Source of the DNA: Verrucomicrobiota bacterium
GTDB lineage: Bacteria > Verrucomicrobiota > Verrucomicrobiia > Opitutales > LL51
NCBI GenBank assembly: GCA_021294815.2
Contig: CP095464.1
Location: 210,001-242,000, forward strand
DNA length: 32,000 nucleotides
Direction of reading: 5' to 3'
Of the stretch, positions 11,449 through 21,836 are shown one piece after another. The notes under the pieces were generated by a model. The model had not been told where the DNA came from and searched no databases. It worked only from the letters and a program-made list of their open reading frames with translations. A program made the translations under genes and the position numbers. The first letter of the stretch is position 1. Every line of letters starts with the position of its first letter.

Positions 11449-12516
11449 TTAGTCTTTTGTCGCAAGGGCTCCTTGTCCCACTTTGCTCATCGTACGCAAA
11501 TGAAAGTAAAGTGTTTCGAAAACCGTTATTGACTCACGGTAATAGGTAGATAAATCGACGATCGCCCACAAAAGTTGGCGCTGGAACTGAAGCCACTCCC
11601 TGACGCTATGCTGTTGTGCAATTGGTAACAACTTCGACAGATACCACGGATTTTGGCTAAAAATACTTTCATCCGATGCCTTGGGATAACGCGTTGCAAG
11701 CTGTTCAAGTGTTGCTTTATTAATACGCGCCACGTGATCATGCTCACATAAATAAGCGAGCTGTACCAAAATACGAACCCGGTTTTGTAAGGCCATAAGC
11801 AACGGACGCCCCTCTTCCTGATATAAAAAGTAGCGCCGAATTTCTTCCCGAAAACGCTCAACATCGTCTTGAAAAAAACTATCGATTGTTTCAAAAAAAT
11901 CGCTATTTTGAATGTCTACCACAACCGCTCGGATATCCTCGATTTCAATATCACGGCGATCGCCGACGTATAGTAACAATTTTTCGAGCTCATTATCGAT
12001 GACGGCCGTTTCATTCCCTGTTCGTCTCAAGAAAAGCGCTGCGGCTTCAGAAGTGATTTTTTTCTGCTCCTTTTCGATTTTTTTAGAAAGTAACCGCTCG
12101 CAATCCAATGCCTTCAGTGATTCACACAGCTCGGACTGACTGTGGTCTAAAAACCATTTCACGACCTTTTGTCGGCGATCACACGCTCCTGCGGTTAATA
12201 AAAATCCGGTGGGCACAGTTTTCAAAGTTTTCTGAACAACCTCGATCCACTCCAGAACAGCTTCTGATTTCAAGACCACACTGTCATTGAGATACGATAC
12301 CCCGCGGTACCAGACGAATTTTTCCTCGGAAAAGAGTGACGACGTTCGAAGTGCCTCATGGACCCGTTTTAATTCCGCAACCACCTCGGCAACCTTTGTC
12401 GCTTCACTCGCAATCACCTCAATTTCTTGATTCCGATGCGACTCCAAAACTGCCTCTCCGCGGTTAAGAACCGTGAAGGCATCGCTACCGAAAATAAAAA
12501 ACCGCTCGCCGACCAT
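11449..12516 (-). CDS. holA: DNA polymerase III subunit delta
   Basis: 355 aa. Its length, N-terminal FIFGSD.F pattern and the ITSEAAALFLRRTGNETAVIDNELEKLLLYVGDR..IEIEDIRAVV and RPLLMALQNRVRILVQL segments line up by eye with E. coli HolA domains II/III. Confidence 0.65.
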   Translation of the reverse strand: MVGERFFIFGSDAFTVLNRGEAVLESHRNQEIEVIASEATKVAEVVAELKRVHEALRTSSLFSEEKFVWYRGVSYLNDSVVLKSEAVLEWIEVVQKTLKTVPTGFLLTAGACDRRQKVVKWFLDHSQSELCESLKALDCERLLSKKIEKEQKKITSEAAALFLRRTGNETAVIDNELEKLLLYVGDRRDIEIEDIRAVVVDIQNSDFFETIDSFFQDDVERFREEIRRYFLYQEEGRPLLMALQNRVRILVQLAYLCEHDHVARINKATLEQLATRYPKASDESIFSQNPWYLSKLLPIAQQHSVREWLQFQRQLLWAIVDLSTYYRESITVFETLYFHLRTMSKVGQGALATKD

Positions 12517-15515: not shown

Positions 15516-15624
15516 TACCCATCACCGTAGGCCTCGCACTACAAATGACAAGCCCTATCCCACGGGTGACGATTTTATCGTTGGCAGATGGATTTTACGG
15601 TTTATCCTCATCGCCAAACGGATC

Positions 15625-16989
15625 ATGCGCCTTGGAAGATATTTAGCGAAAAATCGAATTATCGAGCTGAAAAGCCACGAGTTTAAGGATGCCCTCGTCG
15701 AGCTTTTATCGACTTGCGCGATCGCCAAGAACGCTGAGGAACAAGACTCGATCGTTAACGAGATTCTCGAACGTGAACAAACGATTACGTCGTATTTAGG
15801 CAATGGAGTTGCCCTTCCTTACATCCGACGTCCGATTAATAAGCCCTATATTTTCGCCATTGGGCGCTGTAAGAATGGTCTTAATTTTGCAAATTCCGGT
15901 GAACATAAGGATACACGGATCATCTTTTTGATGATTATTTCGACCGAAAACGAAGAATCCTACCTTACCGTACTCGCGGCAATCGCCCGTATTTTTCAGA
16001 GCCAAGAAAATATTCATCAGATTCTCGCGAACCAATCTATTGGCTCCTTCCGTGGTCATATTCGAAACCTCTTTGGTGCGTGTAAATCGATTACCAATCA
16101 AAGTAAGAACCATCAGAATCAACTGATGCTCCGGGAAGCACAAAAGATTGTGAAAGCGACTAAATGTAGTACGGTTCTTATTTTTGGAGATATTTTAACG
16201 AGTTCGTTCGAAATTGAAGCACCGACCAGTAATGCAAAACTCGTCCTCGTCACCCATAAAACGGATAGTCTTGCTGCTTCGGAAAATAATTTTGATGACG
16301 TTATTTACGTTCATCCATTCTCGAATTACCGTCTTTCTCAGGCCCGTAGCGCGATTATCATCGGTTTAACACGCGGTATTATTAGTCATAAAGACAAAGT
16401 TTGCTGCTTCTCAGGTCTCCCTCAAAGTGATATTTTTGATACCATTTCTATTATTGATGTCGCCAAAGAGTTTGGGAATTCGTTCTTTAATAACGAAGAT
16501 CTTTTATCGGAAGGCATCCATCCGGAGGCACTCGAACGGTTATTGGCCATCGCGGCGGATATCTCCGTCGAAGGTAGGGAAGGAAAGCCCGTGGGTTGTC
16601 TCTTTGTCATTGGGGATATTGCTAAAATTAAGCCCTTTACAAAGCCTCTCGTCCTTAATCCATTCTACGGCTACAAAGAAGAAGACCGTAATATTTTAAA
16701 CCCCTTTATGGCAGAAACCATTAAGGAATTTTCTTCTATTGATGGCGCATTTATCGTCCGAGGTGACGGCGTTATCGAGTCCGCAGGATCGTTGATTCAG
16801 GCATCGAGTGAAAATGCTATCCAGATGCCAAGCGGATTTGGAACGCGTCATGCCGCCGGAGCGGTTATTTCAGCCGTTGCCGATTGTATCGCAATCGCGG
16901 TTTCGGAGAGTACCCATCAGGTAACGCTGTTTAAAGATGGTAAAATGATGCTATTCTCTGACCAAAGTTTTTCATCCTCAACCATCTAA
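15625..16989 (+). CDS. Fusion protein: EIIA(Ntr)-like PTS_EIIA_2 domain, PK_C-like middle domain, DisA_N diadenylate cyclase domain
   Basis: The track ORF starts at a TTG (15280) inside dnaN. The first plausible start is the ATG at 15625 (454 aa). The N-terminus aligns with PtsN (ILEREQTITSYLGNGVALPYI vs ILTREKMGSTGIGNGIAIPHG). The C-terminus carries DAC motifs: GCLFVIGD, IDGAFIV (16741-) and GTRHAAG (16840-16860), then AIAVSESTHQVTLFKDG. Confidence 0.8.
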   Translation: MRLGRYLAKNRIIELKSHEFKDALVELLSTCAIAKNAEEQDSIVNEILEREQTITSYLGNGVALPYIRRPINKPYIFAIGRCKNGLNFANSGEHKDTRIIFLMIISTENEESYLTVLAAIARIFQSQENIHQILANQSIGSFRGHIRNLFGACKSITNQSKNHQNQLMLREAQKIVKATKCSTVLIFGDILTSSFEIEAPTSNAKLVLVTHKTDSLAASENNFDDVIYVHPFSNYRLSQARSAIIIGLTRGIISHKDKVCCFSGLPQSDIFDTISIIDVAKEFGNSFFNNEDLLSEGIHPEALERLLAIAADISVEGREGKPVGCLFVIGDIAKIKPFTKPLVLNPFYGYKEEDRNILNPFMAETIKEFSSIDGAFIVRGDGVIESAGSLIQASSENAIQMPSGFGTRHAAGAVISAVADCIAIAVSESTHQVTLFKDGKMMLFSDQSFSSSTI

Positions 16990-17028
16990 AAGGCTTTTGC
17001 TCTTATCTAGGAAGGGTATATCGGAAAA

Positions 17029-17985
17029 ATGCAGCCTCTCATTAAAAAGAATGAAGCATTATCGGTACGGCGTTTTTTTGACATGGGCCGTGCCTCGCTA
17101 CAACTTGCGCTCGTCGCAGGTGAATCGGGTCTCAATACCCACGCGATCACCGATAATGCCGTTAACCGTCCAGGTCTCGCATTGACGGGGTATTTTAAGC
17201 GTTTCGCTTCGAAGCGTGTTCAATATCTCGGATTCTGTGAGCTCTCTTACCTTCTCGATCTCGATCCAGAAGCTCAACTCCATGCAATCGATGGAATTGA
17301 TGAAGTCGGTATCCCGTGTTTCGTCGTCACGGATCGAATTCCGGTACCCACCTCAATCGTAGAGCACTGTAATGAACGGGCTCTACCCCTTCTATCGACG
17401 CATCTCACGTCTGCGGAATTCGTTGAACGTGCAACGATTGCACTCGACGAGTATTTCGCACCCAATACCGTTCTCTCCGGAACGCTCGTAGAAGTCAATG
17501 GCATAGGCGTACTCATCCAAGGGTTACCGGCTTTGAGTAAAAGTGTTTCGACGATTGTACTCATCGAACATGGCCATACGCTGATTGCGGACGAAGTCGT
17601 TTGTGTCTCTCGTAGCCATGACGGCCTCCTAGTGGGCAGCGGTAAAGATCTCGCACGCGGGTTTATGGAATTCCGCGGCATTGGGCTCCTAAAAGTCTCT
17701 GAACACTTTGGGACACATGCGGTTCGTGCCAAAGGTCCGGTCGATCTCATCGTACAGTTCCTAGACGTCTTACCGAATGCGGAAAAAACAGGTCTCGAAG
17801 CACCGTCTGAAGATACCATCCTCGATTGTACCCTACCACTCATCCAACTCCCTGTCTGCTCAGGGAATGATGCCTGTCGGCTTGTCGAGATTGCGGCAAC
17901 GCTCCACCTACTACGGAAGCGCGGTCATAATCCGGCAGAAGAGCTTGCGCAACGTCTCCTACAACAGATGGAAACCTCGGCTTAG
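17029..17985 (+). CDS. hprK: HPr kinase/phosphorylase homolog with a non-canonical P-loop
   Basis: 318 aa. NRPGLALTGYF..F...RVQYLG..E..YL, HGHTLIADE and MEFRGIGLLKV align with HprK/P. The Walker A position reads GLPALSKS (17521-17544) instead of GDSGxGKS. Confidence 0.8.
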   Translation: MQPLIKKNEALSVRRFFDMGRASLQLALVAGESGLNTHAITDNAVNRPGLALTGYFKRFASKRVQYLGFCELSYLLDLDPEAQLHAIDGIDEVGIPCFVVTDRIPVPTSIVEHCNERALPLLSTHLTSAEFVERATIALDEYFAPNTVLSGTLVEVNGIGVLIQGLPALSKSVSTIVLIEHGHTLIADEVVCVSRSHDGLLVGSGKDLARGFMEFRGIGLLKVSEHFGTHAVRAKGPVDLIVQFLDVLPNAEKTGLEAPSEDTILDCTLPLIQLPVCSGNDACRLVEIAATLHLLRKRGHNPAEELAQRLLQQMETSA

Positions 17986-18120
17986 TATAAGGTATTGTTG
18001 AGTTTATTTTGAATCTGCATACGCTCAACCCAACTACTCTGGCGACTTTTCGCTAACAAGTCGAGAGCGAATATGGGGACTTCGCATTGACGGTTCCTTG
18101 AAAAAAAGTACGCTCATGCC

Positions 18121-19677
18121 ATGGATGCATGGCAATATTTTTGTGACCATCACTTCACCTACCGCTCTGTCGGCCTGGGTCTTGACGTCAGCAAGCTCTC
18201 GCAATTCGATGAGACATCCCAAAAAATCGATCGCGAATCGGTTTTTAAAGAGATGAGCTTTTTAGAAAGTGGAGGTATCGCTAATCCCGATGAAAACCGT
18301 ATGGTCGGCCACTACTGGTTACGCAATCCCGCGATTGCTCCGACTCCCGAACTCAAAAACGCCATTACCGAGGTTTGGGATTCCATTGATCGCTTCGTCT
18401 ACGCCGTTCATTCCGGAGACATTACCGGAGAAACGCATGCCTTTAAAAATCTCCTCTGTATTGGGATCGGCGGATCTGCCCTAGGACCTCAACTTGCTTG
18501 CGCAGCACTTTCCCCTCAAAAACCAAAGCTCGCGGTCTATTTTCTCGACAACACGGACCCAGAGGGCATCGATACCGTTCTTGCTCAACTCGAAGGACAA
18601 CTGGATGCCACACTCGTCATTGTGACCTCGAAATCTGGTGGCACTCCCGAGACCCGCAATGGAATGCTTGAAGTTGCCCATGCTTACCAAAACGCAGGAC
18701 TTTCCTTTGCCCGACACGCTGTCGCAATTACCTGTATAGATAGTAAACTCGACCAGCAAGCGCGAAAAGAGGGCTGGCTGAAACGCTTCCCCATGTGGGA
18801 CTGGGTCGGTGGCCGGACTAGTATCGCCTCTGTCGTCGGTCCTTTACCGATGGCTCTCTGCGGCATCGATTACAAAACCTTTCTGAACGGCATGCGCGAT
18901 ATGGACTCGCTTACACGCCGCCACGACCCCAACAACCCGGCACTCCTCCTGGCAACAGCTTGGTACGCCGCAACCGACGGAAAAGGTACAAAAGATATGG
19001 TTATCCTTCCCTATAAAGACCGCCTATCGTTATTTTCTCGATTTCTCCAGCAACTCATCATGGAATCGCTTGGCAAAAAGCTCGATCGGGACAACCATCC
19101 AGTATACCAAGGAATTACCGTTTACGGCAATAAGGGCTCGACGGATCAGCATGCCTACGTCCAACAACTCCGCGACGGACTTTCGAACTTTTTCGTTACC
19201 TTCATCGAAGTCCTCACGGACCGCGATACCGAACCGGTCATGATCGACGCTCACACGACGACAGGCGACTATCTCGAGGGCTTTTTCTTAGGGACACGCC
19301 AAGCACTCCACGAAGCCGATCGCTCCTCCATAACACTCACTATTGATCGCATCGACGCCTACCATCTCGGCGTTCTGATTGCACTCTACGAACGGACGGT
19401 CAGCTTTTACGCCACAATGGTTCACATCAATGCTTATCATCAACCCGGTGTTGAAGCCGGCAAGAAGGCGGCCAATACAATCCTACAGCTCCAAGCGACA
19501 GCACTCGAACATCTCAAGTCTCACCCACAACCGAAAACGGTTCTAGAGATTGCGGCCTCAATTCAAACACAAGATTTTGAGACACTGTTCAAACTCCTCG
19601 AGCACCTATCGACCAATAAACGGCTTCAACGCACGGAAGCAGACGATCCGCATCAAAATCGCTATCTCTGGCGTTGA
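18121..19677 (+). CDS. pgi: Glucose-6-phosphate isomerase
   Basis: 518 aa. NRMVGHYWLRNP, IGIGGSALGP, VIVTSKSGGTPET, GGRTS..S.VG, GNKGSTDQHAYVQQLRDG, INAYHQPGVEAGK. Confidence 0.92.
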   Translation: MDAWQYFCDHHFTYRSVGLGLDVSKLSQFDETSQKIDRESVFKEMSFLESGGIANPDENRMVGHYWLRNPAIAPTPELKNAITEVWDSIDRFVYAVHSGDITGETHAFKNLLCIGIGGSALGPQLACAALSPQKPKLAVYFLDNTDPEGIDTVLAQLEGQLDATLVIVTSKSGGTPETRNGMLEVAHAYQNAGLSFARHAVAITCIDSKLDQQARKEGWLKRFPMWDWVGGRTSIASVVGPLPMALCGIDYKTFLNGMRDMDSLTRRHDPNNPALLLATAWYAATDGKGTKDMVILPYKDRLSLFSRFLQQLIMESLGKKLDRDNHPVYQGITVYGNKGSTDQHAYVQQLRDGLSNFFVTFIEVLTDRDTEPVMIDAHTTTGDYLEGFFLGTRQALHEADRSSITLTIDRIDAYHLGVLIALYERTVSFYATMVHINAYHQPGVEAGKKAANTILQLQATALEHLKSHPQPKTVLEIAASIQTQDFETLFKLLEHLSTNKRLQRTEADDPHQNRYLWR

Positions 19678-19976: not shown

Positions 19977-20112
19977 GTTTCGACTACTCTGACAGCTTAC
20001 TCATGAAAGAGACCAATATACGTTCGTTTATCGCAGTATGTGATTTAAAGCATCTTGACAAAACCCACGCCTAATAAAATGGTTTTTGAATCCTGAATTA
20101 GGGAATACATGC

Positions 20113-20514
20113 ATGAAGAAACACTTTTATCTACTTTCACTGGCAATATGTCTTGTTTATCCAATTTTCGCCATTGCAGCAGGCCCTTATGATGATCTAA
20201 TGCCGCAATTAGTGCAAATTTACGGCAATATTCCGGAGGTAGATCAATTTATCGAGCTTGCCAACAAACATTGGAAATTTATCCGAAAATGGCACATTAA
20301 AATGCGGCGATCGTTGTGGCCGCCAATGTCCGAAGAAGATCGTAAAGCACTTAGGTTAATTGAAGATAAATCAAAGCCGGAACATTTATCCTCTCACCAT
20401 CCTTTTGTTGCCGACTGGTTTATTGATCACCTCGGATTATCGCCGAGAAAACAAGGCCCCCATTTCGGATCGCTAGTGAAACTCTTGAACACCCGCGATG
20501 CTACTAAAAACTGA
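20113..20514 (+). CDS. Secreted protein of unknown function (family member P1)
   Basis: 133 aa from the ATG at 20113 (the track ORF starts at an upstream TTG). Signal peptide MKKHFYLLSLAICLVYPIFAIAA. The mature region is paralogous to P3 (GPYDDLMPQLVQIYG / APYDHLREPLENLYG; FIELANKH / FISLANRNH; VADWFI / VETWFI). Confidence 0.6.
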   Translation: MKKHFYLLSLAICLVYPIFAIAAGPYDDLMPQLVQIYGNIPEVDQFIELANKHWKFIRKWHIKMRRSLWPPMSEEDRKALRLIEDKSKPEHLSSHHPFVADWFIDHLGLSPRKQGPHFGSLVKLLNTRDATKN

Positions 20515-20629
20515 TAGTAAAAATATCTTGACAAAATTTATCAAAGGCGAAGCTCCATGGCTAAGCGTTGGCGCAGAAGCTTTTGGTGGGAAGGTATTCT
20601 GTTTTCCCACTGATAAGAAAGGAAAACAC

Positions 20630-21109
20630 ATGAAGAATCATATTACTAAACTCTTATCAGTATTATTGCTGGGTGGTTCTATTTCAACTGCACTTGCTGT
20701 CAGACAGGGGCCACCGGTTCGTGCAACACACGAACACGTTTATGGCCTGCGAAACTTTTTGAGAACCCTTCACCAACAAGACGGTGTCAGCGGAGAGTTA
20801 TTTCATTTCGTCAACGAGCGTACAGGAAACATCAATCTCACCGGCGTTAGTTCCACAGATCTCGATATCTTGGTCGCCTTTTTCGTCTTACTACACCCGG
20901 AATGTATAGGGGAACTCACCTCATCGCTCGAAAGATACGGCGAGAGAACGCAGACCTGGGTTGAGCCTGGGATTGTGCATCTTTGGTCACTCAAGGAACA
21001 AATCGAGGATGGCAATTTTACCGCAGCAGAAATACGGGATGCGGTTCGTCGGAATTTTCTCACGGTGCAGGAAGCTCAAGATCTCTTCAATATGTGGCTT
21101 TCGGCCTAG
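20630..21109 (+). CDS. Secreted protein of unknown function (family member P2)
   Basis: 159 aa from the ATG at 20630 (AAAGGA RBS upstream). Signal peptide MKNHITKLLSVLLLGGSISTALA is almost identical to that of P3. I recognise no family in the mature part. Confidence 0.6.
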   Translation: MKNHITKLLSVLLLGGSISTALAVRQGPPVRATHEHVYGLRNFLRTLHQQDGVSGELFHFVNERTGNINLTGVSSTDLDILVAFFVLLHPECIGELTSSLERYGERTQTWVEPGIVHLWSLKEQIEDGNFTAAEIRDAVRRNFLTVQEAQDLFNMWLSA

Positions 21110-21197
21110 AAGAAATGATTTTTTAGGGTACGCATTTGGGTGGAAAGATTTTTAACGGAAGAATTGTAAATGCTTCTGTTATCAAGGGAAAAAATAC

Positions 21198-21836
21198 ATG
21201 AAGAATCATATCACTAAACTCATATCAGCATTATTAATCGGCGGTTCCATTTCGTCTGTGATCGCAAGCGCACCGAAATCTGTTCGGCCGGGTCCTCGGG
21301 GAAACCTCATTTCAAGGACAATGAGTGTCGCTCATGCGCCTTATGATCATTTGAGGGAGCCTTTGGAGAATCTCTACGGCAAGGATGAGCTAGGCGGCGC
21401 ACTTGTTGATAACTTCATTAGCCTCGCAAACCGCAATCACCAGCGAATTAAGGGAAACGCGACCCCCGAGGAGCTTGCACAGTTAGGTCTCCCCGCTCAA
21501 GGAGCCATCAATCCAGCGCTTGTCGAGACTTGGTTTATCTATCAATTCACTCAAATACCCGCAAAGGAACGCAATCTATATTTTGTGGAGCGCATCGAAG
21601 AGTTGAATGACAGCGATTCGTATGAAGAAGATGGTGATCCATGCGACGAAGGGGCAGCGGAAAGGACAATCGAAAACCTAAGGCAAATCCAAGAAAAAGT
21701 TGAAAAACGAGAAATTTCTTGGTCCCAAGTTGAGACACTACGTCACCTTCACTTGCTACCCGATGGTTCTAACGAGGAGGAGGAAGAAGAAGAAGAAGAG
21801 GAGGAAGAAGCCTATCTGACCGGGGAACTTGACTAA
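21198..21836 (+). CDS. Secreted acidic protein of unknown function (family member P3) with a poly-Glu tail
   Basis: 212 aa. Signal peptide MKNHITKLISALLIGGSISSVIA. The central region is paralogous to P1. The acidic C-terminus includes 12 consecutive Glu. Confidence 0.65.
   Translation: MKNHITKLISALLIGGSISSVIASAPKSVRPGPRGNLISRTMSVAHAPYDHLREPLENLYGKDELGGALVDNFISLANRNHQRIKGNATPEELAQLGLPAQGAINPALVETWFIYQFTQIPAKERNLYFVERIEELNDSDSYEEDGDPCDEGAAERTIENLRQIQEKVEKREISWSQVETLRHLHLLPDGSNEEEEEEEEEEEEAYLTGELD
21774..21809 (+). repeat. GAR trinucleotide tract encoding Glu x12 within P3
   Basis: GAG GAG GAG GAA GAA GAA GAA GAA GAG GAG GAA GAA, in frame with the 21198 start. Confidence 0.95.

What the first reader, a model, noticed from the sequence alone, without database searches (positions are those of the whole stretch)
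15625..16989. Diadenylate cyclase fused to an EIIA(Ntr)-like domain whose phospho-acceptor His is Tyr
Seen in the sequence:
- The 454-aa product starts with a PTS_EIIA_2 domain that aligns residue for residue with E. coli PtsN around the active site (GNGVALPYI vs GNGIAIPHG).
- The phosphorylatable His (His73 in PtsN) is a Tyr here (TAC at 15820-15822). The second conserved His region (T-HLH-TL) reads SYLTVL.
- A ~150-aa middle domain (KCSTVLIFGD...KLVLVTHKTDS...IIIGLTRGIISHKDKVCCFSG) has the pattern of a pyruvate-kinase C-terminal-like regulatory domain.
- The C-terminus is a DAC/DisA_N domain. It has the DGA motif (IDGAFIV), but its RHR motif reads RHA (GTRHAAG).

Established knowledge: DAC domains make c-di-AMP using the DGA and RHR motifs, and EIIA(Ntr) signals through His phosphorylation.

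Inference: the cyclase is controlled by a PTS-like sensor domain that can no longer be His-phosphorylated. It may act as a protein- or metabolite-binding module, or be phosphorylated on another residue. I do not recognise this three-domain architecture as a characterised cyclase class.
Basis: partly seen in the sequence, partly recalled or inferred. Interest (0 to 1): 0.7.

Follow-up and report, generated by a model that had tools for sequence, protein, structure and literature searches.

The report
c-di-AMP cyclase with dead PTS partners
This is a c-di-AMP-making enzyme of a Verrucomicrobiota family that carries a sugar-phosphotransferase (EIIA) sensor domain. In one Puniceicoccales lineage both that domain and the HPr-kinase gene next to it have lost their phosphate-handling residues yet are still conserved, which suggests a signalling relay rebuilt without phosphorylation.

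Summary
ORF 15625-16989 encodes a 454-aa protein with three domains: PTS_EIIA_2 (aa 8-138), DacZ_P (164-282) and DAC (314-441). Tyr66 sits exactly where PtsN has its phospho-His. The DAC motif reads RHA rather than RHR.

The context changes the reading in four ways:
- **The architecture is common.** It gives 2865 hits in Verrucomicrobiota and already has its own Pfam domain, but I found no experimental study of it.
- **RHA is normal for this class.** The third position varies freely, and a haloarchaeal DacZ ortholog reads RHH. The enzyme is probably active.
- **His-to-Tyr is derived and clade-specific.** Tyr occurs in the 16 sequences at 60% identity or more. His occurs in 103 of the 120 closest homologs and in 75 of about 82 distant representatives. 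The domain is still under strong purifying selection (dN/dS 0.01-0.08).
Gene 17029-17985 reads GLPALSKS where canonical HprK has the Walker A loop GxSGxGKS, and it lacks the catalytic-site His. It is also under purifying selection. It lies next to the Tyr-type cyclase in 12 of 14 loci and next to a non-Tyr cyclase in 0 of 74.

Best reading: an active DacZ-class cyclase whose PTS input has become phosphorylation-independent, probably through this pseudo-HprK. That last step is inferred, not shown. It is a new variant of a known kind.

The parts
15625..16989 (+). Cyclase gene: 454-aa EIIA(Ntr)-like / DacZ_P / DAC protein (stop codon included)
   Evidence: ORF and sequence. Pfam domains. Orthologs start at the same Met. 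99% identical copy in L001 and P0001.
15646..16038 (+). PTS_EIIA_2 domain (aa 8-138), EIIA(Ntr)-like fold
   Evidence: Pfam 66.9 bits against cutoff 27. Foldseek best hits are PtsN structures, TM 0.79-0.81. dN/dS 0.01-0.08 within the clade.
15820..15822 (+). Tyr66 codon (TAC) at the position of the phospho-acceptor His (PtsN His73)
   Evidence: Alignment to PtsN. Tyr in 16 sequences, His in 103, Asn in 1 among the query plus 120 closest homologs. His in 75 of about 82 distant EIIA-carrying representatives.
15961..15963 (+). Tyr113 codon at the position of the second conserved His of EIIA_2 domains (PtsN 'THLH')
   Evidence: Alignment. Invariant Tyr in all 120 close homologs, including those with the phospho-His. 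Most distant relatives have His here.
16114..16470 (+). DacZ_P domain (aa 164-282), the PK_C-like putative sensor domain of DacZ-class cyclases
   Evidence: Pfam 41.1 bits against cutoff 27.4. Aligns to a haloarchaeal DacZ. PK_C-like fold according to PMC6741144.
16564..16947 (+). DAC (DisA_N) catalytic domain, aa 314-441
   Evidence: Pfam 75.6 bits. PDB sequence hits to CdaA. Foldseek hits to DisA and CdaA. dN/dS 0.01-0.02.
16741..16749 (+). DGA motif (Asp373-Gly374-Ala375)
   Evidence: Read from the sequence. Near-invariant in 150 representatives.
16846..16854 (+). RHA (Arg408-His409-Ala410) at the place of the RHR motif
   Evidence: Aligned to GTRHRAA of CdaA. R and H are invariant and the third position is variable. 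Haladaptatus DacZ reads RHH.
17029..17985 (+). HprK-like gene (318 aa), 39 bp downstream and in the same frame as the cyclase; predicted pseudokinase
   Evidence: Pfam Hpr_kinase_N and Hpr_kinase_C, and TIGR00679 at 250.5 against cutoff 240. Degenerate catalytic motifs. dN/dS 0.06-0.08. No terminator-like site between the two genes.
17521..17544 (+). Degenerate Walker A loop of the HprK-like protein: GLPALSKS instead of GxSGxGKS
   Evidence: HMMER alignments to 1ko7, 1knx and 1jb1. 0 of 18 close homologs are canonical against 95 of 102 distant ones. Coordinates checked.
17476..17478 (+). Ser150 of the HprK-like protein, at the position of the conserved active-site His (HGVLV in solved HprK/P)
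   Evidence: Alignment. The position is F, S, N or L in all 18 close homologs and His in 88 of 102 distant ones.
15516..15624 (.). Divergent intergenic region between dnaN (-) and the cyclase (+); presumed promoter region
   Evidence: Gene layout. One weak sigma-70-like match at 15581-15608, not above the shuffled expectation.

Best explanation
**What it is.** The gene encodes a DacZ-class diadenylate cyclase, and I expect it to be catalytically competent. It belongs to a large Verrucomicrobiota family in which an N-terminal EIIA(Ntr)-type domain sits in front of the DacZ_P sensor domain and the DAC domain.

**Ancestral state.** In most of the family the EIIA domain keeps its phospho-acceptor His. 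The family-level design is therefore most simply a PTS phosphorelay (EI to HPr/NPr to EIIA-His) setting c-di-AMP synthesis.

**State in this clade.** In the clade of this window (uncultured Puniceicoccales, cyclase 60% or more identical) the His became Tyr. The domain is fixed in a non-phosphorylatable form, functionally like the dephospho state. It was not discarded and stays under strong purifying selection.

**The neighbour.** In the same clade the cyclase gene is followed, 39 bp downstream and with no terminator-like site between them, by an HprK homolog. That homolog's nucleotide/phosphate-binding P-loop and active-site His are destroyed, yet it too is under purifying selection.

**Proposed mechanism (inferred).** The phosphotransfer input has been replaced by a phosphorylation-independent protein-protein input. 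The dead EIIA domain acts as a docking module. The HprK-derived pseudoenzyme, alone or together with HPr, and possibly still sensing a glycolytic metabolite, modulates the cyclase through it.

**Shown:** the domains, the substitutions, their phylogenetic distribution, the gene linkage and the selection. **Inferred:** cyclase activity, ancestral His phosphorylation, loss of HprK catalysis, and above all the physical or functional coupling of the two proteins.
For: **Identity and architecture**
- Domain hits are all above their Pfam cutoffs.
- The AF2 model's N-domain best matches PtsN, and its C-domain best matches DisA/CdaA.

**Cyclase probably active**
- D373-G374-A375, R408, H409 and S427 are (near-)invariant in 150 diverse representatives.
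- The third 'RHR' position varies freely. A PGAP-named haloarchaeal DacZ reads RHH and SES.
- The DacZ of Haloferax volcanii makes c-di-AMP (PMC6741144).
- The DAC domain has dN/dS of 0.01-0.02.

**His is ancestral and Tyr is derived**
- His occurs in 103 of the 120 closest homologs and in 75 of about 82 distant EIIA-DAC representatives.
- Tyr occurs only in the query plus P0001-P0015.
- The nearest outgroup (P0016-18, 55% identical) has His.

**The EIIA domain is still functional**
- At matched DAC-domain divergence, EIIA identity is the same in the Tyr and His clades: 0.78 against 0.78, 0.74 against 0.78, 0.65 against 0.66.
- Its dN/dS is 0.01-0.08.

**The HprK homolog is degenerate**
- It reads GLPALSKS where solved structures read GDSG[IV]GKS or GRSGIGKS. 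His is replaced by Ser150, and the Glu after GKS is replaced by Val.
- 0 of 18 close homologs have a canonical loop, and the loop residues vary among them (ALS, TFP, PLP, DNI, ASI). By contrast, 95 of 102 more distant HprKs are canonical.
- It is still conserved, with dN/dS 0.06-0.08 and an intact EFRGIG signature.

**Linkage**
- The Tyr-type cyclase has hprK* immediately downstream in 12 of 14 loci. This includes L085, where the other flanking genes differ.
- The count is 0 of 74 for non-Tyr cyclases: 71 GTDB loci, the sister L081, and the independent His-loss cases L087 (Asn) and L088 (Gln).
Against: - No experiment and no complex prediction supports an interaction between the EIIA domain and the HprK-like protein.
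- The association of Tyr66, the degenerate HprK and the adjacency traces to a single clade. It may therefore reflect a single evolutionary event (n = 1).
- Two Tyr-clade genomes (L004, L008) keep the Tyr-type cyclase without hprK* next to it. In L008 hprK* is cleanly absent between the cyclase and pgi. The pairing is therefore not obligatory in cis.
- Two independent losses of the His (Asn, Gln) have no HprK neighbour.
- I could not determine whether these genomes still encode HPr, EI or a canonical HprK. The window has none.
- Phosphorylation of the His in the His-type relatives is itself only inferred from conservation.
- The P-loop Lys-Ser is retained, so residual phosphate binding cannot be excluded from sequence alone.
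Confidence: 0.5

Rival explanations
1. Locked relic. The PTS input was simply lost in this lineage. Tyr66 freezes the EIIA domain in one conformation, and the domain is kept only for folding, oligomerisation or basal autoinhibition of the cyclase. The neighbouring HprK-like gene has an unrelated function, or a function only loosely related through carbon metabolism, and is adjacent by chance or for co-expression with pgi.
For: - The His-to-Tyr change is a single transition (CAY to TAY) fixed in one clade.
- L004 and L008 keep the Tyr-type cyclase without the neighbouring gene.
- Other His-loss variants (Asn, Gln, Ser, Arg) exist without any HprK neighbour.
- The linkage is phylogenetically a single event.
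- The gene order dnaN/cyclase/hprK*/pgi/rpsU is a housekeeping neighbourhood.
Against: - The EIIA domain is as constrained in the Tyr clade as in the His clade. That is more constraint than a mere spacer would need.
- The cyclase-hprK* pair stays together when the other flanks change (L085).
- Two independent PTS-type proteins lost their phosphate chemistry on the same branch and lie 39 bp apart. This is an unlikely coincidence, although it cannot be quantified with n = 1.
Confidence: 0.27
2. Alternative phosphorylation. The EIIA-like domain is still regulated by phosphorylation, but on Tyr66 or on a nearby Ser/Thr. The kinase would be a different enzyme, possibly the divergent HprK homolog acting with new substrate specificity.
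For: - Tyr is a phosphorylatable residue and is strictly conserved in 16 of 16 clade members.
- HprK-family proteins are Ser kinases, and one is encoded directly downstream.
- The P-loop Lys-Ser and the EFRGIG signature are retained.
Against: - The glycine-rich part of the Walker A loop is gone, contains Pro, and varies between close relatives. The conserved His is also lost. This argues against any nucleotide-dependent catalysis.
- No tyrosine-kinase gene lies in the window.
- No new conserved Ser or Thr appears next to the active site in the clade-specific substitution list.
Confidence: 0.07
3. Inactive cyclase. Because RHR reads RHA, and the CdaA-type SEET reads SEST, the DAC domain is a pseudoenzyme that binds ATP or c-di-AMP rather than making c-di-AMP.
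For: - RHA aligns to RHR of CdaA, and S429 aligns to the second Glu of the CdaA 'SEET' motif.
- The protein scores far below the NCBIfam equivalog cutoffs for CdaA, DisA and DacZ.
Against: - The same deviations (RH-x and S-x-S) are the rule across 150 representatives of the DacZ_P-type group.
- They also occur in a PGAP-named haloarchaeal DacZ (RHH, SES), whose Haloferax ortholog is an active, essential cyclase (PMC6741144; PMC10249747).
- DGA, Arg408, His409 and Ser427 are invariant. The DAC domain is the most constrained part of the protein (dN/dS 0.01-0.02).
Confidence: 0.05
4. Artefact. The N-terminal domain is not translated because the real start is internal, or the Tyr codon is a sequencing or assembly error.
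For: No obvious Shine-Dalgarno sequence lies upstream of the ATG at 15625. The promoter-like match there is weak.
Against: - More than 100 orthologs start at the same Met and have the same length.
- The N-terminal region has dN/dS of 0.01-0.08.
- Tyr66 is present in 16 sequences from independent samples and assemblies.
Confidence: 0.01

Closest known systems
DacZ / CdaZ (DacY) class diadenylate cyclases (Haloferax volcanii DacZ, Methanocaldococcus jannaschii CdaZ)
   Same: - A PK_C-like regulatory domain lies directly in front of a C-terminal DAC domain (Pfam DacZ_P + DAC).
- The best NCBIfam hit is DacZ.
- It is 31% identical over 229 aa to a PGAP-named Haladaptatus DacZ, with the same RH-x and S-E-S motif variants.
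   Different: - It carries an extra N-terminal EIIA(Ntr)-like domain.
- It is bacterial (Verrucomicrobiota).
- It scores 110 bits against the 430-bit equivalog cutoff, so it is not an ortholog of haloarchaeal DacZ.
EIIA-DacZ_P-DAC cyclases of Verrucomicrobiota (His-type orthologs, e.g. Rubellicoccus peritrichatus, Cerasicoccus arenae/maritimus, Coraliomargarita). They are catalogued in databases but I found no experimental study. From memory, unverified here, they are covered by Galperin's 2023 survey of DAC architectures (PMC10127676, not held).
   Same: Same three-domain architecture and length, 45-55% identity, the same RHA motif and the same Tyr113.
   Different: - They keep the phospho-acceptor His.
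- None of the 71 GTDB loci has an hprK gene within 10 kb. Their conserved neighbours are nuoA-like, trpA, dnaG and rpoD.
EIIA(Ntr) / PtsN of the nitrogen-related PTS (E. coli, Burkholderia, Neisseria)
   Same: - Same fold. It gives the best structural matches, TM 0.79-0.81.
- The active-site loop aligns residue for residue.
- Unphosphorylated PtsN acts by binding partner proteins such as KdpD (preprint 10.1101/2023.07.05.547876). This is a precedent for a non-phosphorylated EIIA working as a docking module, and it touches K+ homeostasis, as c-di-AMP does.
   Different: - Here the domain is fused to an enzyme rather than free-standing.
- The phospho-His is Tyr and the second His is Tyr.
- It scores 33.8 bits against the 138.7-bit cutoff of the PtsN equivalog model.
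HPr kinase/phosphorylase (HprK/P; solved structures 1ko7, 1knx, 1jb1) — for the neighbouring gene
   Same: - Both Pfam domains are present.
- The TIGR00679 score is just above its cutoff.
- 137 bits to 1ko7 over the full length, with the EFRGIG signature loop and IAD[DE] kept.
   Different: - The Walker A loop GxSGxGKS is GLPALSKS.
- The conserved His is Ser.
- The Glu after GKS is Val.
- There is a long branch: 50% identity or more within the clade and 40% or less to all canonical HprKs.

Membership tests
DAC / DisA_N diadenylate cyclase domain (PF02457) | Profile match above the Pfam gathering score | tested here: met
   75.6 bits against cutoff 27, covering 3-119 of 119 profile positions. 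Foldseek hits to DisA and CdaA at E about 1e-7.
DAC / DisA_N diadenylate cyclase domain (PF02457) | DGA motif followed by hydrophobic residues | tested here: met
   IDGAFIV at aa 372-378. D, G and A are near-invariant in 150 representatives.
DAC / DisA_N diadenylate cyclase domain (PF02457) | RHR motif | tested here: not met
   The motif reads RHA. Arg and His are invariant. The third residue is variable across the DacZ_P-type group and is His in a named DacZ. The strict motif therefore does not define this class.
DAC / DisA_N diadenylate cyclase domain (PF02457) | c-di-AMP synthesis from ATP | not testable with these tools
   Needs an enzyme assay or complementation of a c-di-AMP-null host.
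DacZ/CdaZ-class cyclase (PK_C-like domain + DAC) | DacZ-type PK_C-like domain directly N-terminal to the DAC domain | tested here: met
   PF21755 DacZ_P at 41.1 bits against cutoff 27.4, aa 164-282. The alignment to Haladaptatus DacZ spans both domains.
DacZ/CdaZ-class cyclase (PK_C-like domain + DAC) | Orthology to haloarchaeal DacZ (NCBIfam NF041371 equivalog cutoff) | tested here: not met
   109.8 bits against cutoff 430.
PTS EIIA_2 / EIIA(Ntr) | Profile match and fold | tested here: met
   PF00359 at 66.9 bits against cutoff 27. TM 0.79-0.81 to PtsN structures.
PTS EIIA_2 / EIIA(Ntr) | Phospho-acceptor His in the G-x-G-[IV]-A-[IL]-P-H loop | tested here: not met
   Tyr66 occupies the position. 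It is His in 103 of the 120 closest homologs.
PTS EIIA_2 / EIIA(Ntr) | PtsN equivalog score (TIGR01419) | tested here: not met
   33.8 bits against cutoff 138.7.
PTS EIIA_2 / EIIA(Ntr) | Presence of EI and HPr/NPr partners in the genome | not testable with these tools
   None lies in the 32-kb window or in the 10-kb flanks of clade loci.
HprK/P (neighbouring gene 17029-17985) | Profile match (TIGR00679; Pfam N and C domains) | tested here: met
   250.5 bits against cutoff 240. Hpr_kinase_N at 100.9 bits and Hpr_kinase_C at 129.8 bits.
HprK/P (neighbouring gene 17029-17985) | Walker A P-loop GxSGxGKS that binds ATP, PPi or Pi | tested here: not met
   The loop reads GLPALSKS. 0 of 18 close homologs are canonical against 95 of 102 distant ones.
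HprK/P (neighbouring gene 17029-17985) | Conserved His preceding the P-loop strand (HGVLV) | tested here: not met
   Ser150 occupies the position. It is F, S, N or L in all 18 close homologs and His in 88 of 102 distant ones.
HprK/P (neighbouring gene 17029-17985) | Signature loop (L/M)E(I/V/F)RG(L/I)G | tested here: met
   MEFRGIG is present in the window and in 17 of 18 close homologs.

The most novel reading that the evidence does not exclude
A pair of PTS-derived pseudoenzymes controls c-di-AMP synthesis without any phosphotransfer. One is an EIIA(Ntr) domain that cannot be phosphorylated. The other is an HprK that cannot bind nucleotide. On this reading the HprK-derived protein docks on the dead EIIA domain of the cyclase, directly or via HPr, and relays a metabolic signal such as a glycolytic intermediate. 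This would be both a new regulatory input for a diadenylate cyclase and the first HprK-family pseudokinase with an assigned role.
Probability: 0.3. Interest if true: 0.75.

Novelty: new variant of a known kind. Interest (0 to 1): 0.6.

Why it matters
How c-di-AMP synthesis is controlled is still poorly understood outside CdaA/GlmM/CdaR and DisA. The role of the N-terminal domains of DacZ-class enzymes is described as unknown (PMC6741144, PMC10249747).

**The family.** A very large Verrucomicrobiota family puts a PTS EIIA(Ntr)-type receiver in front of the cyclase. This predicts a direct link from the PEP/PTS phosphorylation state to c-di-AMP. The prediction can be tested in cultured His-type species such as Cerasicoccus, Coraliomargarita and Rubellicoccus.

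**The clade of this window.** It is a natural experiment on that link. The phospho-site was mutated, a linked HprK lost its P-loop, and both are still under strong selection. If the two proteins work together, this shows how a phosphorelay can be converted into a binding-only circuit, and it gives HprK-like pseudoenzymes a function. EIIA(Ntr) and c-di-AMP are each known regulators of K+ homeostasis, so the fusion may join two systems so far studied separately.

**If the link is coincidental.** The finding then reduces to a clade-specific variant of an uncharacterised but already catalogued cyclase family.

Tried and rejected
**Literature**
- Searches for an EIIA-DAC study found nothing relevant ('diadenylate cyclase' + EIIA + Verrucomicrobia; 'DacZ_P'; 'c-di-AMP' + 'PTS_EIIA_2'; EIIANtr + c-di-AMP).
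- Galperin's 2023 survey of DAC architectures (PMC10127676) is not held. Whether it lists this architecture rests on my memory only.
- A search for degenerate HprK in Verrucomicrobia returned only noise.

**PTS partners**
- I looked for ptsH, ptsI and other PTS genes in the window and in all clade loci, using tblastn with B. subtilis and E. coli HPr and Pfam on all larger ORFs. Only hprK* was found.
- Whole genomes could not be searched.

**Ideas tested and dropped**
- That the 271-aa protein with no Pfam hit after the cyclase in L083 shows loss of HprK. Rejected: it is the same HprK-like gene, interrupted by scaffold Ns.
- That independent losses of the His (Asn in P0040, Gln in P0136) also have an HprK neighbour. 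They do not, and their unknown neighbours show no similarity to HprK.
- That the EIIA domain is decaying in the Tyr clade. A raw EIIA/DAC divergence ratio suggested relaxation (2.9 against 1.9). This disappeared once pairs were matched for DAC divergence and when dN/dS was computed.
- That RHA marks an inactive enzyme. Rejected.

**Searches that gave nothing or could not run**
- The scan for haloarchaeal DacZ among 10 short representatives found none above the cutoff. A plasmid-borne Haladaptatus dacZ was then found by tblastn.
- Rfam found no riboswitch or other RNA in the window.
- Promoter and terminator scans were at chance level.
- My first regular-expression tally of HprK P-loops failed. 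It was replaced by an alignment-based tally.


Full report
**1. The object**

The window is a housekeeping stretch of chromosome from an uncultured Puniceicoccales bacterium (Verrucomicrobiota). Its genes include lpxK, lpxB, mutS, dprA, rsfS, ybeY, rpe, prmA, fabH, tsaE, dnaN, pgi and rpsU. The nearest public copy is 99% identical at the cyclase protein level (L001, 'uncultured Verrucomicrobia bacterium').

The ORF 15625-16989 (+) encodes 454 aa. The ATG at 15625 is the real start, because more than 100 orthologs begin with the same MRLxRY and are 443-454 aa long. The longer mechanical ORF from 15280 runs into dnaN on the opposite strand.

**2. Check of the observation**

Pfam gives three hits, all above their gathering scores:

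| Domain | Residues | E-value |
|---|---|---|
| PTS_EIIA_2 | 8-138 | 2.5e-18 |
| DacZ_P | 164-282 | 1.7e-10 |
| DAC | 314-441 | 3.2e-21 |

- The best NCBIfam hit is haloarchaeal DacZ, far below its equivalog cutoff (110 against 430 bits). PtsN, fructose-EIIA, CdaA and DisA are also sub-threshold.
- A profile alignment places Tyr66 (TAC, 15820-15822) on His73 of E. coli PtsN (LGNGVALPY against IGNGIAIPH). It places Tyr113 on the His of PtsN's 'THLH'.
- HMMER alignments to solved CdaA structures put GTRHAAG on GTRHRAA.
- An AlphaFold2 model built on 118 homologs has mean pLDDT 80 and a disordered linker at 152-159. Its N-domain is closest to PtsN/EIIA(Ntr) crystal structures (3urr, 2a0j, 4gqx, 1a6j; TM 0.79-0.81). 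Its C-domain is closest to DisA/CdaA.

**3. How unusual is the architecture?**

It is not unusual.
- The homolog search returned 2865 proteins. The 120 best all carry the same three Pfam domains and come from Opitutales and Puniceicoccales, including cultured species such as Rubellicoccus peritrichatus. Cerasicoccus species appear among the loci.
- In an exhaustive search with the DacZ_P+DAC part against 1.84 billion cluster representatives, 85 of the best 150 (down to about 30% identity) also have the EIIA domain. The rest are two-domain DacZ_P-DAC proteins of about 280-330 aa.
- Source databases already call these proteins 'diadenylate cyclase' or 'PTS sugar transporter subunit IIA'.
- One paper notes that Verrucomicrobiota are the main gut phylum with DacZ-type cyclases (PMC12901056).
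- I found no experimental work on the EIIA-fused form. The survey that probably catalogues it (Galperin 2023, PMC10127676) is not held.

**4. RHA is the norm for this class**

- Among the query plus its 120 closest homologs, Arg408 and His409 are (near-)invariant. Position 410 is Ala in 114, Ser in 5 and Val in 2, and never Arg.
- Among 150 diverse representatives it is A69, T16, Q12, R11, H8, V6, E5, M5 and others. D373-G374-A375, R408, H409 and S427 stay essentially invariant.
- The position where CdaA has the second Glu of 'SEET' is Ser in 138 of 150.
- A plasmid-borne Haladaptatus salinisoli gene that PGAP names 'diadenylate cyclase DacZ' aligns over both domains (31% identity, E 2e-30). 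It reads GTRHHAA and SESD.
- DacZ of Haloferax volcanii is a demonstrated, essential c-di-AMP synthase (PMC6741144; PMC10249747).
- The DAC domain here is the most constrained part of the protein (dN/dS 0.01-0.02).

I therefore expect an active cyclase. This is an inference.

**5. The His-to-Tyr change is derived and clade-specific**

- At position 66 the query plus its 120 closest homologs have His in 103, Tyr in 16 and Asn in 1, with one truncated sequence.
- The 16 with Tyr are exactly the query and P0001-P0015, that is, all sequences at 60% identity or more.
- The next relatives (P0016-18, 55%, also Puniceicoccales MAGs) have His.
- Among distant EIIA-DAC representatives His is kept in 75 of about 82, with scattered Gln (3), Asn, Ser and Arg.
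- Tyr113, the 'second His', is invariant in the whole Opitutales-type family, His66-bearing members included. Most distant relatives have His there. It is therefore unrelated to the Tyr66 event.

The ancestral design is thus an EIIA domain with an intact phospho-site. This suggests, by inference, control of the cyclase by PTS phosphotransfer.

**6. The Tyr-type domain is not decaying**

- A raw comparison suggested faster EIIA evolution in the Tyr clade.
- When sequence pairs are matched for DAC-domain divergence, EIIA identity is the same in both groups: 0.78 against 0.78, 0.74 against 0.78, 0.65 against 0.66.
- Nei-Gojobori dN/dS within the clade is 0.01-0.08 for the EIIA part.
- The DacZ_P domain is somewhat more diverged in the Tyr clade (0.70 against 0.84 at matched DAC divergence).
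- Besides H66Y, the clade-specific fixed changes are spread over all domains. In most clade members (14 sequences) the residue three positions after Tyr66 became Arg, giving PYIRR.

**7. The neighbour: an HprK that has lost its P-loop**

The next gene lies 39 bp downstream, in the same frame, with no terminator-like site between. It is 17029-17985 (318 aa). It matches both HprK Pfam domains and passes the TIGR00679 cutoff narrowly (250.5 against 240).

Alignments to solved HprK/P structures show the following:
- The Walker A loop GDSG[IV]GKS/GRSGIGKS is GLPALSKS (17521-17544).
- The conserved His of 'HGVLV' is Ser150.
- The Glu after GKS is Val.
- The EFRGIG signature and IAD[DE] are kept.

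The same holds in the homologs:
- All 18 close homologs (50-95% identity, Puniceicoccales) have a non-canonical loop, and its residues vary (GLPTFPKS, GLQPLPKS, NLPASIKS, GLPDNIKS, GLPAIPKG and others). None has the His.
- Of the next 102 hits (40% identity or less, other Verrucomicrobiota and beyond), 95 have the canonical loop and 88 have the His.
- The jump from 50% to 40% identity marks a long branch.
- The gene is intact in every genome seen, with dN/dS 0.06-0.08.

A glycine-less, proline-containing and variable P-loop argues that nucleotide, PPi and Pi binding is lost. I call it a predicted pseudokinase (hprK*). This is an inference from sequence.

**8. Linkage**

| Cyclase type | Loci with hprK* immediately downstream |
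|---|---|
| Tyr-type | 12 of 14 |
| Non-Tyr | 0 of 74 |

- The 12 Tyr-type loci are the window, L001, L002, L003, L005, L006, L007, L009, L083, L085, L089 and L090.
- In L085 the other neighbours are different (argS ... cyclase-hprK*-fabV), so the pair moved or stayed together as a unit.
- The two exceptions are L004 (rearranged) and L008 (cyclase directly followed by pgi).
- The 74 non-Tyr loci are 71 GTDB species representatives within 10 kb, the nearest His-type sister L081/L082, and the independent His-loss cases L087 (Asn) and L088 (Gln).
- His-type cyclases instead sit in a nuoA-like / cyclase / trpA context near dnaG and rpoD.

The three events (His-to-Tyr, P-loop loss, juxtaposition) map to the same branch. 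This is striking, but phylogenetically it is one observation.

**9. Mechanism**

- Best-supported reading (overall confidence about 0.5; the descriptive parts are much firmer): an active DacZ-class cyclase whose EIIA(Ntr)-type receiver was converted from a phospho-acceptor into a phosphorylation-independent docking module. The co-transcribed HprK-derived pseudoenzyme, with or without HPr, is its likely partner.
- Precedent for the logic: unphosphorylated EIIA(Ntr) regulates targets such as KdpD by direct binding, and both EIIA(Ntr) and c-di-AMP act on K+ homeostasis.
- Main rival (about 0.27): the PTS input was simply lost, the domain is kept for structural or autoinhibitory reasons, and the neighbour is coincidental.
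- Minor rivals: alternative phosphorylation (0.07), inactive cyclase (0.05) and artefact (0.01).

**10. What could not be settled**

- Whether these genomes retain HPr, EI or a canonical HprK.
- Whether the two proteins interact.
- Whether the His-type relatives are really phosphorylated.

**11. Verdict**

The non-phosphorylatable sensor domain stands. 'Unrecognised architecture' and 'RHA is aberrant' do not.
- The added value is the clade-restricted pairing of two PTS-derived proteins that both lost their phosphate chemistry but not their selective constraint.
- This is a new variant of a known, uncharacterised cyclase family. Interest is 0.6.

Noticed in passing
window 17029-17985 (+); P-loop at 17521-17544: The gene directly after the cyclase is an HprK homolog. 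Its Walker A loop reads GLPALSKS instead of GxSGxGKS, and its conserved His is Ser. The same degeneration occurs in all 18 close homologs, and the gene is still under purifying selection. It is a predicted HprK-family pseudokinase.
   Followed up: yes
window 20086-21836 (+): Three consecutive ORFs (142, 203 and 212 aa) lie between rpsU and ybeY. They have no Pfam family even at E 0.1. They are found only in the 99%-identical relative L001 and are absent from that position in L089 and L090, where rpsU is followed directly by ybeY. This is also the lowest-GC 2-kb bin of the window (0.439). It is possibly a lineage-specific insertion of unknown function.
   Followed up: partly
window 11449-12516 (-): A 355-aa ORF conserved across the clade between DUF502 and lpxK has only a faint DNA_pol3_delta match (E 0.018). 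It is probably a divergent holA.
   Followed up: partly
L088 8001-12232 and window 15625-19677: pgi lies shortly downstream of the cyclase both in the Tyr clade (cyclase-hprK*-pgi) and in a distant Gln-variant EIIA-DAC locus (cyclase, two unknown or DUF559 genes, then pgi). This may be chance, or a weak recurring link between this cyclase family and glucose-6-phosphate isomerase.
   Followed up: no
cyclase aa 164-285 (window 16114-16479) compared across homologs: At matched DAC-domain divergence the DacZ_P sensor domain is more diverged among Tyr-clade members than among His-type members (identity 0.70 against 0.84). The EIIA domain shows no such difference. The ligand or partner of the middle domain may have changed in this clade.
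   Followed up: partly
L078 10677-10919 (-): In one His-type locus (a marine Puniceicoccaceae MAG) an HPr-like gene lies about 8 kb from the cyclase. At least some His-type genomes of the family therefore encode the PTS phosphocarrier.
   Followed up: no
L035 and L066 (record titles): Two loci carrying typical Opitutales-type EIIA-DAC genes come from MAGs labelled Polaribacter sp. and Zhongshania aliphaticivorans. These are most likely binning contamination rather than transfer.
   Followed up: no
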